Assembly (NCBI GenBank): GCA_903916195.1 | Contig: CAIWVP010000162.1 | Coordinates: 26,159 to 90,158 of the forward strand | Origin: an uncultured Verrucomicrobiota bacterium | Lineage (GTDB): Bacteria; Verrucomicrobiota; Verrucomicrobiia; Limisphaerales; UBA9464 | Direction: 5' to 3' | DNA length: 64,000 bases | In this document: positions 58,301-61,300 of the stretch, one piece after another | Numbering within the stretch: the first letter of the stretch is position 1 | Layout of the letters: each line of letters starts with the position of its first letter | Position numbers and translations under genes: made by a program | The notes under the pieces: generated by a model | Told to the model about the DNA's origin: nothing | The model's database searches: none | Seen by the model: only the letters and a program-made list of their open reading frames with translations

Positions 58301-61300
58301 AATCCAACTCGCTCATCGTCTCCGGCAGCCGGTCCGACCTGCAGGACGTCGAGTCCGTCATCGAGAAGCTCGACGGCGAATCCACCGGCAAGGAACGCGT
58401 GCTCCGCATCTTCGACGTGAAGGGCGATCCCGACGCGCTCGCGGCCACGGTGCAGAAGGTCTTCGCCGCGCAGAACCCCGGCCGGAACATCGGCGGCCTG
58501 CTCAGCATCACGCCCGAGCCCGCCGGCAAGCGCCTGCTCGTGCTCGCCCCGCCCGCCACGCTCGCCCAGGTCGCCACGATGGTCACCGCGCTCGACGCGA
58601 ACCCCGACCAAGGCGTCCGCGAACTCCATCCGGTCGAGCTGAAGAACACGACCACGGCCGACCTGCTCCCGAAGGTCCGCCAGATCTACACCGAGCAGTC
58701 CCAGGGCAAGACCATCAAGCCCGCTTCCATCTACGGGGACGCCTCCGGCTCCCGCCTGCTGATCCATGGCACCGAGGAACAGGCGGCGTCCATCCGCCAG
58801 ATCGTCTCGACGATGGAGAGCCAGGCACCGTTGGCGCGGGAGACCAGGACGTTCGACCTCGGCAAGCTCTCCGAGGCGCAGCGCGTGCTGCCGCTGCTCC
58901 AGCAGTTCTACAAGGACCAGGTCGCCAGCAGCCCGCAAACCGGCATCGCCGACGCCCAGATCGTCAGCGACGGCAAGACCGGACGCCTGCTCGTCAGCGC
59001 GCGCGCCGACCATCTGAAGCTGATCGAGGACCTCGTCTCCCGCCTCCAGGTCGGCGACGCCGGGGCTTCGGCGGCCCGCGAGACCCGGACCTTCGAGGTC
59101 GGCACCGCGGCCGATGTGGCGCGCCTCCAACCGCTCGTCGCGCAGCTCTACAAGGACCAGTGGAAGGACAAGCAGGACACCGATCCGGCCGACGCCCAGA
59201 TCATCGCCGACGCCAAGACCGGCCGCCTCATCGTCACCGGCAAGCCCGAACATCTGAAGCAGATCGAGGCCATCCTCCAGCAGCTCGGCACCGGCAAGGC
59301 ACGCATCGAGAACCGCCAGACCCGCATCATCGACCTCACCACCGCCAGCGCCGTCGAGCTCGCGACCACCGTCCGCACGCTCTACGCCGAGGAGGCCAAG
59401 GGCCGTCTCGGCGGCCAGACCGCCGACACGCTCATCACGCCGGACACGGGCGGCAACCGCCTCATCCTGGTCGGCGACACCAACGAACTGACCGCCATCG
59501 AGGAGATCGTCCGCAAGCTCGACAAAGGCAGCGCCCAGAGCGCTTCCGCCCGCGTCTTCAAGATCAAGTCCGCCGACCCGGACAAGGTCGCGGAGATCCT
59601 GACCACGTCGCTCGTCCGCTACGACGCCTACGGCCGGCCGCAGAAGCGCGCCACGGTCTCCGTCGACGCCAAGACCCGGACGCTGATCGTGACCGGCGAC
59701 CCGAAGGAGCTCCAGGGCGTCTCGCTCATCATCGAGCAGCTCGACCAATCGCTCGGCGCCCAGCCCGAGCGGCGCACCAAGGTGATCACCCTCAAGCAGG
59801 GCAAAGCGGCCGCGCTCTCCTCCAAGGTCCGCCAGCTCTACGCCGACCGCATCAAGGGCCAGCCCGAGCTCGCCACCTCGGACATCCTCATCCTCGAAGA
59901 ACCCGAGAGCAACCAGCTCATCCTCGCCGGCAACGAGGCGCAGCTGAGGGTCGTCGACCAGATCGTCGACGAGATCCAGTCCGCGCAGGTCACCCGTTCC
60001 GCCCGCGAGACCAAGCTGCTCGAGGTCGGCAGCGCGGACGAGCTGGCGCGCCTGCAACCGCTGGTGCAGCAGCTCTACCAGGGCCGGATGAAGGGCCGCG
60101 ACGCCAGCGATCCCGCCGATGCGCAGATCATCACCGATGCCAAGAACGCGCGGTTCATCGTCACGGCGCGCACGAACCACATCGCCGAGATCGAGTCCAT
60201 CATCGCGCAGCTGCGCAGCGGCGACGCGGCGTTCCAGCCCCGCGACACCCGCGTGATCGACCTCGCGACCGCCAACGCCGTGGAGCTCACCACGACGGTC
60301 CGCACCCTCTACACCGAGCAGGCCAAGAACCGCCCGGGCGCGCCCGCCGCCGACACCTTGATCACCGCCGACACCAGCGGGAACCGCATCATCGTCACCG
60401 GCGCCACCAACGAGCTCGCCGTGGTCGAGGACATCATCCGCAAGCTCGACAAGGTCGGTGCCCAGAGCGCCAGCACGCGCGTCTTCAAGCTCAAGTCGGC
60501 CGATGCCGACAAGGTCGTCGAGATCCTCGCCACCGCCCTCGTCCGCTACGACGCCTACGGCCGCCCCCAGAAACGCGTCAGCGTCGTCACCGATCCCAAG
60601 ACCCGCACCATCATCGCCACCGGCGACCCGAAGGAGCTCCAGTCCGCCGCCGTCATCATCGAGCAGCTCGACTCGTCGCTCGGCACGCAGGCCGGTCGTT
60701 CGATGCGGGTGCTGACCGTGAAGAACCGCTCCGTCGGCGAGCTCGGTTCCAAGGTGCGGCAGGTCTACACCGACCGCAGCAAGAGCCAGACGGAACTCGG
60801 CGGCAGCGAGGCCCTCATCCTCGAGGATGCCGCGAGCAACCAGCTCATCGTCGCCGGCACCGAGCCCCAGCTGGTCGCCATCGAAGAGATCGCCGTGCTC
60901 CTCCAGGCCGGCGGCGGCGGCGAGAACGGCCGCGCGGTCCGCGTCGTCTCCCTCGAGCGCAGCACCGCCACGAGCCTGGTGGCGATGTTGTCCCAACTCT
61001 ACTCCAAGCAGATCGCCAGCCCGGATCCCGCGGTCCGCCTGATGGTCAGCGTCGGCGGGAACGAGCGCACGCTCGTCGTCGACGCGCCCGCCGCCACCGC
61101 CGAGAAGGTCGAGCAGCTGGTGAAGTCGATGGACCAGACCGATCCCGCCGCCCAGAACGTCATCCAGACCGTCCGCCTCACCAAGAGCCGCGCCGAGGAC
61201 CTCGCCGAGGCCGTCAACCGCACGCTCACCAACCGCATCGGTTCCGGTCCCGGCGCCGGCCGCCGCGTCGCCGTCACCGCCGTCCCGGGCGCCAACAGCC

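What the first reader, a model, noticed from the sequence alone, without database searches (positions are those of the whole stretch)
58834..60927. Cassette-wise (927-bp, four-module) tandem duplication inside the secretin
Blocks 59074-60000 and 60001-60927 are colinear copies, each of 309 codons and four N-modules (types a-b-c-d). Examples are ARETRTFEVGTAADVARLQPLVAQLYKDQ vs ARETKLLEVGSADELARLQPLVQQLYQGR, SARVFKIKSADPDKVAEILTTSLVRYDAYGRPQKR vs STRVFKLKSADADKVVEILATALVRYDAYGRPQKR, and LIIEQLDQSLGAQ vs VIIEQLDSSLGTQ. An extra type-a module sits 240 bp upstream (ARETRTFDLGKLSEAQRVLPLLQQFYKDQ at 58834). An older type-c copy is at 58177 (VRFDARGQAVKR). The array therefore seems to have grown by duplicating multi-domain cassettes, not single domains. 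That implies a higher-order structural unit and makes the gene prone to recombinational length variation. It is also a risk for short-read assembly.
Basis: seen in the sequence. Interest (0 to 1): 0.6.

Follow-up and report, generated by a model that had tools for sequence, protein, structure and literature searches.

The report
Old four-module duplication in giant secretin
A 3,959-residue outer-membrane secretion pore with about 43 ring-building domains contains a real but ancient duplication of a four-domain block, and relatives have repeatedly gained or lost exactly one such block, so the length of the pore's "neck" changes in four-domain steps.

Summary
Window 59074-60000 and 60001-60927 align without a gap: 72.8% nt and 58.9% aa identity, against 22% or less at any other offset. 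Each block holds four Secretin_N modules (a-b-c-d) of a 3,959-aa T2SS-type secretin from a Verrucomicrobiota (Limisphaerales/Pedosphaera-like) MAG.

It is neither recent nor an assembly artefact:
- Synonymous sites are almost saturated, and the longest shared exact run is 26 nt.
- Nine independent assemblies give the same 3,959-aa protein.
- On a tree of 94 cassettes from 47 orthologues, one branch (99*) separates all copy-1 from all copy-2 cassettes. That means one duplication before the family diverged.
- Both copies are under purifying selection (orthologue dN/dS 0.08-0.23).

Relatives carry 1, 2, 3 or 4 cassettes, with at least 10 changes between 2 and 3. The middle cassette is an in-register chimera (a2 b2 | c1 d1), and the reciprocal one-cassette form (a1 b1 | c2 d2) also exists. 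Breakpoints mostly fall at the b|c junction, the most similar stretch in this gene (59498-59647).

A "higher-order structural unit" is not supported. Short-read assembly risk is low here. Multi-domain tandem duplication is a known pattern; the host family seems undescribed.

The parts
55348..64000 (+). The first 2,884 codons of the giant secretin gene. The ORF continues on the contig to window-equivalent 67227, giving 3,959 aa. It has a signal peptide, a weak N0 match, about 43 Secretin_N modules and a C-terminal secretin pore domain.
   Evidence: Pfam Secretin_N E=4e-262 with 30 stretches, and TIGR02517 GspD E=5.6e-214. PF00263 E=9e-51 on the C-terminus, and N0 at E=0.0026, below the curated cutoff.
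59074..60000 (+). Cassette 1 (309 codons). Module a (M14) is about 59074-59310, b (M15) 59311-59538, c (M16) 59539-59766 and d (M17) 59767-60000.
   Evidence: The AF2 model shows four beta-alpha-beta-beta-alpha modules at mean pLDDT 79, and its best PDB matches are T2SS secretins ExeD, GspD, PulD and XcpQ.
60001..60927 (+). Cassette 2 (309 codons). Module a (M18) is about 60001-60237, b (M19) 60238-60465, c (M20) 60466-60693 and d (M21) 60694-60927.
   Evidence: It aligns to cassette 1 with no gaps at 72.8% nt and 58.9% aa identity. It is orthologous to cassette 2 of 46 other proteins.
59498..59647 (+). The 150-nt stretch most similar between the two cassettes (82.7% identity). It covers the end of module b and the start of module c (…RKLDK..AQSAS.RVFK.KSAD..KV.EIL…LVRYDAYGRPQKR). 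Most cassette gain and loss breakpoints in relatives map to the equivalent region.
   Evidence: for the local identity profile, for the exact runs of 26, 24 and 20 nt at 59611, 59692 and 59726, and for the breakpoints in relatives.
58834..59073 (+). M13, a single extra type-a module directly upstream of cassette 1. It is an old orthologous family of its own and is missing in several lineages.
   Evidence: 46% aa identity to M14, hhalign scores of 125 and 120 to M14 and M18, 69% nt identity over 164 nt, and absent in e.g. P0088-P0092, P0013/14 and P0022/27/28.
58177..58374 (+). M10, an older type-c module (…VRFDARGQAVKR…).
   Evidence: 45% and 43% aa identity to M16 and M20; hhalign scores of 88 and 101.
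56806..57018 (+). M04, an older type-a module.
   Evidence: 43-46% aa identity to M13, M14 and M18, hhalign scores of 104-119, and repeat family D3 at 65% nt identity.
45310..55351 (.). T2SS-like gene cluster next to the secretin. GspF and GspE are on the minus strand. GspG, GspH, a large protein with a helix-hairpin-helix (HHH) match, a PilM-like protein and an unassigned ORF ending at the secretin start are on the plus strand.
   Evidence: Pfam scan: T2SSF 2e-52, T2SSE 1e-134, T2SSG 1e-20, GspH 5e-7, PilM_2 6e-13.

Best explanation
The two blocks are paralogous copies of a four-module (a-b-c-d) stretch of Secretin_N ring-building domains. They lie inside a giant type II secretion-type secretin of a Verrucomicrobiota bacterium.

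The duplication happened once, in an ancestor of the whole family sampled here. Both copies have since been kept as distinct, position-specific, selectively constrained parts of the periplasmic neck. In this genome they are now too diverged (73% nt, at most 26 identical bases in a row) to recombine often or to confuse an assembler.

The paired cassettes still act as a substrate for rare in-register recombination. Misalignment of cassette 2 on cassette 1 followed by a switch, most often at the conserved b|c junction, yields either of two products. One is a three-cassette gene with a chimeric middle copy (a2 b2 c1 d1). The other is the reciprocal one-cassette gene (a1 b1 c2 d2). Both products, and further rounds giving 4 cassettes or extra bcd units, are seen in relatives.

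Shown: the duplication, its age, purifying selection, the copy-number changes and the chimeric junctions.

Inferred: the molecular route. It could be RecA-type unequal crossover, or microhomology or template switching filtered by selection for intact domains. Also inferred: each cassette adds four stacked rings to the conduit.
For: 1. Offset 309 stands alone: 58.9% aa identity against 22% or less elsewhere. The module pairing is colinear.
2. Age. Identical residues use the same codon in 75.8% of cases, against 67.7% expected from codon usage alone at GC3 95.5%. The longest exact run is 26 nt.
3. On a tree of 94 cassettes from 47 two-cassette orthologues, copy 1 and copy 2 are split by one branch with support 99*.
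4. Orthologue dN/dS is 0.08-0.23 for both cassettes.
5. It is not an artefact. Nine full-length members of the 90% cluster, from different assemblies, are all 3,959 aa. The relatives L005 and L006 (98% identity) and L007 (94%) have the same two cassettes.
6. Family dynamics. Module typing covered 120 proteins and 79 genome loci. There are at least 10-11 changes between 2 and 3 cassettes on a tree built from the C-terminal 750 aa, against a shuffled mean of 28.
7. Chimeric middle copies:
- L003 has 187 informative sites matching copy 3, then 165 matching copy 1, with no exceptions. Only the 7 nt CATCATC are shared at the junction.
- L001 shows the same pattern, plus a few unique substitutions.
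- L002 (4,254 aa; its 90% cluster also holds 4,255-aa members) shows an older event, with 84% and 83% identity against a 62-66% background.
- A complete chromosome (L035) and a Canu assembly (L038) carry three cassettes with a chimeric middle copy.
8. The reciprocal deletion product is L080, typed a1 b1 c2 d2 with margins of 17-23 bits at each module.
Against: - Population-level copy-number variants in this sample are therefore not excluded.
- Almost all relatives are MAGs, and copy numbers in short-read MAGs with 100% identical half-cassettes could be mis-resolved.
- The tree used to count changes comes from the same protein, is a FastTree tree, and has several long branches.
- Module typing is uncertain in the most distant homologues (the '?' calls).
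- The junction microhomologies (5-7 nt) are too short for classical RecA-dependent crossover, so the mechanism label is uncertain.
- Between the two copies, dN/dS is high (0.68 overall, about 1.3 for module d). But synonymous divergence is distorted by extreme codon bias.
Confidence: 0.85

Rival explanations
1. The four modules form a functional or structural super-repeat, a nebulin-like higher-order unit. The secretin neck could then only be lengthened or shortened in units of four rings, and selection on that unit explains the cassette-wise pattern.
For: Most gains and losses in relatives are exactly one four-module period and in register, even where only 5-7 nt of identity exist at the junction. 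The module types are distinct and conserved: type c carries an extra beta-hairpin (…YDAYGRPQKR), which is the most conserved segment.
Against: Only this one region has a four-module period; the rest of the ~43-module array shows none. Relatives also tolerate units of one module (presence or absence of M13, a trailing 'a', M05 and M07 runs) and of three modules ('bcd', and (a b c') x5 in P0084). Breakpoints lie at different positions within the period: columns ~116-235, ~457-464, ~516, ~585 and ~624. In-register recombination between two existing copies gives the same period with no structural constraint. The AF2 model has pTM 0.49, so it gives no confident inter-module packing.
Confidence: 0.12
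2. One copy is an assembly artefact: a repeat wrongly expanded, or strain variants joined in tandem.
For: The genome is a fragmented MAG of 211 contigs, and reads could not be checked.
Against: The copies differ at 27% of bases and share no exact word longer than 26 nt, so a de Bruijn graph loop is not expected. Nine independent assemblies yield the identical length. Each copy has its own orthologues in 46 other genomes.
Confidence: 0.01
3. The locus is currently a hypervariable, contingency-type repeat. The two copies recombine frequently, so cells of this population differ in secretin length.
For: The family shows at least 10 copy-number changes, including very recent ones with 100% identical halves. 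Exact runs of 20-26 nt lie near the minimum usually quoted for homologous recombination (that threshold is from my own knowledge).
Against: All full-length proteins at 90% identity or more are 3,959 aa. Relatives at 98% and 94% identity keep two cassettes. There is no sign of concerted evolution between copies, and divergence is 27% at the nucleotide level.
Confidence: 0.03
4. The similarity reflects gene conversion or convergence between modules of the same type, not one duplication of a four-module block.
For: A few relatives show single-module replacements, e.g. 'a1 b1 c2 d1 a2 b2 c2 d2'. There is a slight excess of shared codons over expectation, z=2.5.
Against: The alignment is gapless and colinear across all four modules and their linkers at exactly 927 nt. 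The c1/c2 split across the family is clean. Identity is far above that between any other pair of modules.
Confidence: 0.03

Closest known systems
Multi-domain tandem duplication in domain-repeat proteins (Bjorklund, Ekman & Elofsson 2006, PMC1553488; e.g. the nebulin seven-domain unit)
   Same: The repeat array expands in its middle by duplicating several adjacent domains at once. This is detected as an off-diagonal similarity peak at a multi-domain offset (for the paper; here).
   Different: This is a bacterial periplasmic channel protein with no exons. Only one region of the array has the period. Both reciprocal products of in-register recombination (3-cassette and 1-cassette forms) are seen among orthologues.
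Canonical T2SS secretin GspD/PulD/XcpQ/ExeD (TIGR02517; PDB 5WQ7, 5WQ8, 6HCG, 6I1X, 5WLN)
   Same: It has a signal peptide, N0-like start, Secretin_N beta-alpha-beta-beta-alpha modules and a C-terminal PF00263 pore domain, and it sits in a gspE/F/G/H cluster.
   Different: It has about 43 N modules and 3,959 aa. Studied T2SS secretins have N0-N3 and roughly 650 aa (own knowledge). The N0 match is below the Pfam cutoff.
Thermus thermophilus PilQ, a multi-ring secretin (D'Imprima et al. 2017, PMC5745081, listed)
   Same: It is a secretin with more periplasmic rings than usual, thought to span a wide periplasm.
   Different: PilQ is a 757-residue type IV pilus and DNA-uptake secretin with a handful of rings (the ring count is from my own knowledge). 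The protein here has an order of magnitude more modules and a T2SS-type context.
Repeat-number variation in bacterial surface proteins by recombination between near-identical tandem repeats (e.g. streptococcal Rib/alpha C, staphylococcal SasG/Aap; own knowledge, not tested here)
   Same: In-frame gain and loss of whole repeat units changes the protein's length.
   Different: Those repeats are nearly identical at the DNA level and vary between strains. Here the copies are 73% identical and stable among close strains, and variation appears only between species or lineages.

Membership tests
Secretin (T2SS GspD type) | C-terminal secretin pore domain (PF00263) | tested here: met
   PF00263 at E=9.2e-51 with full profile coverage, on the C-terminus read from the same contig beyond the window.
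Secretin (T2SS GspD type) | Periplasmic Secretin_N (ring-building beta-alpha-beta-beta-alpha) domains | tested here: met
   PF03958 at E=4e-262 with 30 stretches. My own HMM finds 42 modules. The AF2 cassette model is four beta-alpha-beta-beta-alpha units, and its top PDB matches are ExeD, GspD, PulD and XcpQ.
Secretin (T2SS GspD type) | N0 domain at the N-terminus | tested here: inconclusive
   PF21305 at E=0.0026 and 18 bits, below the cutoff of 27. TIGR02517 aligns aa 65-353 to profile positions 2-271.
Secretin (T2SS GspD type) | Genomic association with T2SS/T4P-type ATPase, platform and pseudopilin genes | tested here: met
   T2SSE, T2SSF, T2SSG, GspH and PilM_2 lie within 10 kb upstream.
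Multi-domain cassette tandem duplication | Similarity peak at a multi-domain offset, clearly above all other offsets | tested here: met
   58.9% at offset 309, against a next best of 22.3% and a 99th percentile of 15.5%.
Multi-domain cassette tandem duplication | Colinear one-to-one pairing of modules, with linkers in register | tested here: met
   M14/18, M15/19, M16/20 and M17/21 are each other's best partners. The 927-nt alignment has no gaps.
Multi-domain cassette tandem duplication | Copies are position-specific orthologues across species (one event, inherited) | tested here: met
   One branch (99*) separates 47 copy-1 from 47 copy-2 cassettes.
Hypervariable (contingency-type) repeat locus | Near-identical DNA repeats | tested here: not met
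   72.8% nt identity with a longest exact run of 26 nt.
Hypervariable (contingency-type) repeat locus | Repeat-number differences among closely related strains | tested here: not met
   Nine of nine full-length members of the 90% cluster are 3,959 aa. Relatives at 98% and 94% identity have two cassettes. Reads were not testable.
Structural super-repeat (nebulin-like) | The same multi-domain period recurs along the array | tested here: not met
   There is no other four-module periodicity in the array. Older a-, b-, c- and d-like modules occur, but not as a colinear cassette.

The most novel reading that the evidence does not exclude
In these Verrucomicrobiota the secretin neck works as an evolvable molecular ruler. 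In-register gain or loss of a four-ring cassette would add or remove roughly 12-14 nm, if rings stack as in GspD; that figure comes from my own knowledge of ring heights, not a measurement here. Such steps would retune a trans-periplasmic conduit more than 100 nm long to the width of the cell envelope. The paired ancient cassettes would be retained partly because they make such length changes accessible. The naturally occurring 1-, 2-, 3- and 4-cassette relatives would then be a ready-made series for testing what 40-odd rings are for.
Probability: 0.2. Interest if true: 0.75.

Novelty: new member of a known kind. Interest (0 to 1): 0.5.

Why it matters
The duplication itself is an ordinary way for repeat proteins to grow. 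Its value is as a handle on an apparently undescribed class of giant secretins: four literature searches found no paper on them (one search found the general work on domain repeats).

The family keeps a fixed, position-specific order of about 42 modules. It tolerates repeated insertion or deletion of one defined four-module block, and sister lineages differ by exactly that block (e.g. P0004 and P0070, P0038 and P0112). Such natural pairs allow a direct test, by cryo-ET or secretion assays, of whether module number sets the conduit length. They would also show how tightly conduit length must match the envelope.

For annotation and assembly, this gene's copies are safe. Relatives with 100% identical half-cassettes are places where short-read MAGs may break or miscount.

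Tried and rejected
- Tandem Repeats Finder found nothing relevant, because its longest period is 500.
I therefore could not check read depth, split reads or long reads for this sample.
- Literature searches for giant or many-domain secretins in Verrucomicrobia and Planctomycetes returned nothing relevant. One search call failed on a term-length rule.
- Nei-Gojobori dS between the two copies (0.45) looked deceptively low. Comparison with the codon-usage expectation and with orthologue pS showed it is deflated by GC3 of 95.5%, so I did not use it for dating.
- I looked for an older colinear cassette upstream. M09(b), M10(c), M11, M12(d) and M13(a) are suggestive, but M11 fits no type and the order is not a clean copy, so I dropped it as unresolved.
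- I considered a de Bruijn graph loop as the origin of three-cassette forms. I rejected it for three reasons. L003's junction shares only 7 nt. L001's middle copy has unique substitutions. And long-read assemblies (L035, L038) also have three cassettes.
- I considered counting contig ends inside the cassette zone as evidence of assembly breakage, but dropped it because the loci were selected for containing the cassettes.
- The KH-domain and FAS_AT Pfam hits are sub-threshold echoes of the beta-alpha-beta-beta-alpha fold, with no stretches passing on their own.
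Full report
**What is there**

The finding lies inside one long ORF that starts at 55348 (ATG, typical signal peptide) and runs off the window. On the contig it continues to window-equivalent 67227 and encodes 3,959 aa.
- Pfam finds Secretin_N at E=4e-262 in 30 stretches. NCBIfam finds the T2SS secretin GspD model at E=5.6e-214.
- The C-terminus has a full PF00263 secretin pore domain (E=9e-51). 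The N-terminus has a weak N0 match and one further N-type module.
- An HMM built iteratively from the protein's own modules delimits 42 modules, M01-M42, each 60-100 aa.
- GspF, GspE, GspG, GspH and a PilM-like gene lie just upstream.

So this is the outer-membrane secretin of a T2SS-like machine, with about 43 ring-building domains.

**Checking the observation**

Blocks 59074-60000 and 60001-60927 align without a single gap, at 72.8% nt and 58.9% aa identity.
- I slid a 309-aa window over every offset of the protein. Offset 309 gives 58.9%. The next best offset gives 22.3%, the median is 10% and the 99th percentile is 15.5%.
- The similarity starts sharply at aa ~1242 and ends at ~1540, and the last ~10 linker residues are unrelated.
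- Modules pair colinearly: M14/M18 54%, M15/M19 67%, M16/M20 75% and M17/M21 50%, against a median of 22% between modules.
- Profile-profile scores built from orthologue alignments agree. They add M04 (a-type), M03 (c-type), M09 (b-like) and M12 (d-like). These older relatives do not form a clean colinear cassette.

**Age, and the artefact question**

- GC3 of the gene is 95.5%. Where the two cassettes have the same residue they use the same codon in 75.8% of cases. Codon usage alone predicts 67.7%, and unrelated modules show 65.4% against 61.7% expected. Synonymous sites are therefore close to saturation. The nucleotide similarity is mostly amino-acid conservation plus codon bias.
- The longest exact shared runs are 26, 24 and 20 nt, all in module c.
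- Nine full-length proteins in the 90% identity cluster, from different assemblies and sources, are all exactly 3,959 aa. GTDB relatives at 98%, 98% and 94% identity have the same architecture.

**Orthologues**

A search with aa 1160-1860 found 293 giant secretins of 3.6-5.1 thousand residues. Those with names come from Verrucomicrobiota, Limisphaerales and Pedosphaera MAGs. A genome scan gave 79 further loci, nearly all freshwater Verrucomicrobiota MAGs.

Typing every module against M01-M42 shows a strikingly conserved order, 01…42, with variation concentrated in the cassette zone. On a tree of 94 cassettes from 47 two-cassette proteins, all copy-1 cassettes fall on one side of a single branch and all copy-2 cassettes on the other (support 99*). 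So the duplication occurred once, before this family diverged, and the copies have not been homogenised since. Orthologue comparisons give dN/dS of 0.08-0.23 for both cassettes, so both are maintained.

**Copy-number dynamics**

- About 35 of the 120 typed proteins have three cassettes, and one (P0003) has four. About a dozen of the genome loci, which partly overlap those proteins, also have three.
- Other forms occur: 'abcd abcd a', extra 'bcd' units, loss of M13, and, in a distant member (P0084), eight M07-like modules and five (a b c') units.
- On a tree from the C-terminal 750 aa of 137 proteins, the 2- versus 3-cassette state changes at least 11 times, 10 of them forced by well-supported branches. 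The shuffled mean is 28. Sister pairs such as P0004 (3) and P0070 (2), or P0038 (3) and P0112 (2), differ by one cassette.

**The middle cassette is a chimera**

In three-cassette genes the middle cassette is an in-register chimera. Its a+b half matches the last cassette and its c+d half matches the first. At the DNA level:

| Locus | Pattern in the middle cassette | Junction |
|---|---|---|
| L003 (GCA_964578605.1) | 187 informative sites of copy-3 type, then 165 of copy-1 type, no exception | only CATCATC (7 nt) shared |
| L001 | same switch near column 516 | a few substitutions unique to the middle copy |
| L002 (78% identical to this gene over aa 1160-1860) | older event: 84% and 83% identity against a 62-66% background | about column 585 |
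| L035 (complete chromosome) and L038 (Canu assembly) | three cassettes with the same chimeric pattern | columns 457-460 |

These three-cassette forms are therefore not short-read artefacts. P0013 and P0014 are sisters but have different breakpoints, so their events were independent.

L080 has a single cassette typed a1 b1 c2 d2, with a 17-23 bit margin at each module. That is the reciprocal deletion product.

Most breakpoints fall at the b|c junction. In this gene that corresponds to 59498-59647, the 150-nt stretch most similar between the cassettes at 82.7%. Older three-cassette clades have breakpoints elsewhere, at columns ~116-235 and ~624.

**Interpretation**

Three further claims do not hold.
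- **Recombination-prone here.** This holds for the family over evolutionary time, not for this strain today.
- **Short-read assembly risk.** The risk is negligible at 73% identity.
- **Higher-order structural unit.** This is not needed. Any in-register exchange between two existing copies reproduces the four-module period. Relatives also gain and lose one- and three-module units. The rest of the array has no such period.

The junction microhomologies are too short for classical homologous crossover. The molecular route may be homeologous recombination or template switching, with selection keeping only in-register products that leave intact domains. That step is inferred, not shown.

**Structure**

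An AF2 model of cassette 1, using a 74-sequence alignment of cassettes, gives four beta-alpha-beta-beta-alpha modules at mean pLDDT 79 and pTM 0.49. Module c has an extra beta-hairpin formed by the highly conserved …LVRYDAYGRPQKR… segment. The best PDB matches are the T2SS secretins ExeD, GspD, PulD, EpsD and XcpQ. The low pTM means the relative arrangement of the modules is not predicted.

**Comparison and novelty**

Multi-domain tandem duplication in the middle of repeat arrays is the usual mode of repeat expansion (Bjorklund et al. 2006, PMC1553488). The finding is a new instance of a known kind.

The host family of giant secretins was found in no paper. Earlier notes of this scan report the same family in other genomes. 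I treat those as leads only.

What this analysis adds:
- the duplication is ancient and fixed;
- a documented series of 1-, 2-, 3- and 4-cassette orthologues exists, with both reciprocal recombination products;
- a breakpoint hotspot is mapped onto this gene.

Noticed in passing
window 55237-63417, minus strand: A 2,726-aa ORF lies antisense to the secretin. With GC3 of 95.5% on the sense strand, it is almost certainly a shadow ORF of a high-GC gene and not a gene.
   Followed up: no
contig C162 from about 93393, ~170 codons; beyond the window (window-equivalent ~67235): Directly after the secretin stop is a small ORF with a lipoprotein-type signal (…ILALWILGAGC…) and no Pfam match. Genes of 159-185 aa sit in the same position in L001-L004. 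A small lipoprotein next to a secretin is a pilotin candidate.
   Followed up: partly
window 59620-59660 and 60547-60587 (module c): Type-c modules (M16, M20, and M10 in older form) carry an inserted beta-hairpin, …LVRYDAYGRPQKR…. It is the most conserved segment of the cassette across 74 cassettes. It may be a ring-contact or lumen-facing element.
   Followed up: partly
window 59767-60000 vs 60694-60927 (module d): Module d is the most diverged pair: 65% nt identity and a nominal dN/dS of about 1.3 between copies. Modules b and c give about 0.4. The linker after module d is unrelated between the copies.
   Followed up: no
loci L010, L013, L029, L036, L043, L046, L050, L052, L062-L064, L079, L082: Contigs carrying this Verrucomicrobiota-type giant secretin sit in MAG records titled Akkermansia muciniphila, Klebsiella sp., Cyanophyceae, Candidatus Kapaibacterium, Limnocylindria or Chromulinivoraceae. 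These are probably mis-binned or mislabelled records.
   Followed up: no
P0084 (4,934 aa) and P0003 (3,814 aa, cut): Other lineages expand different units: eight M07-like modules in a row and five (a b c') triplets in P0084, and three M05-like modules plus four cassettes in P0003. The array is plastic at several points, not only at the cassette.
   Followed up: no
P0011, P0012, P0022, P0027, P0028: Several three-cassette proteins lack M22, and some also lack M13, so the total module count rises by less than four. This could be partial length compensation or just typing noise.
   Followed up: no
window 49879-52614 (+): A 911-aa ORF in the pseudopilin operon has only a helix-hairpin-helix match (HHH_3, aa 784-814). 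That is an unusual size for a GspK-position gene.
   Followed up: no
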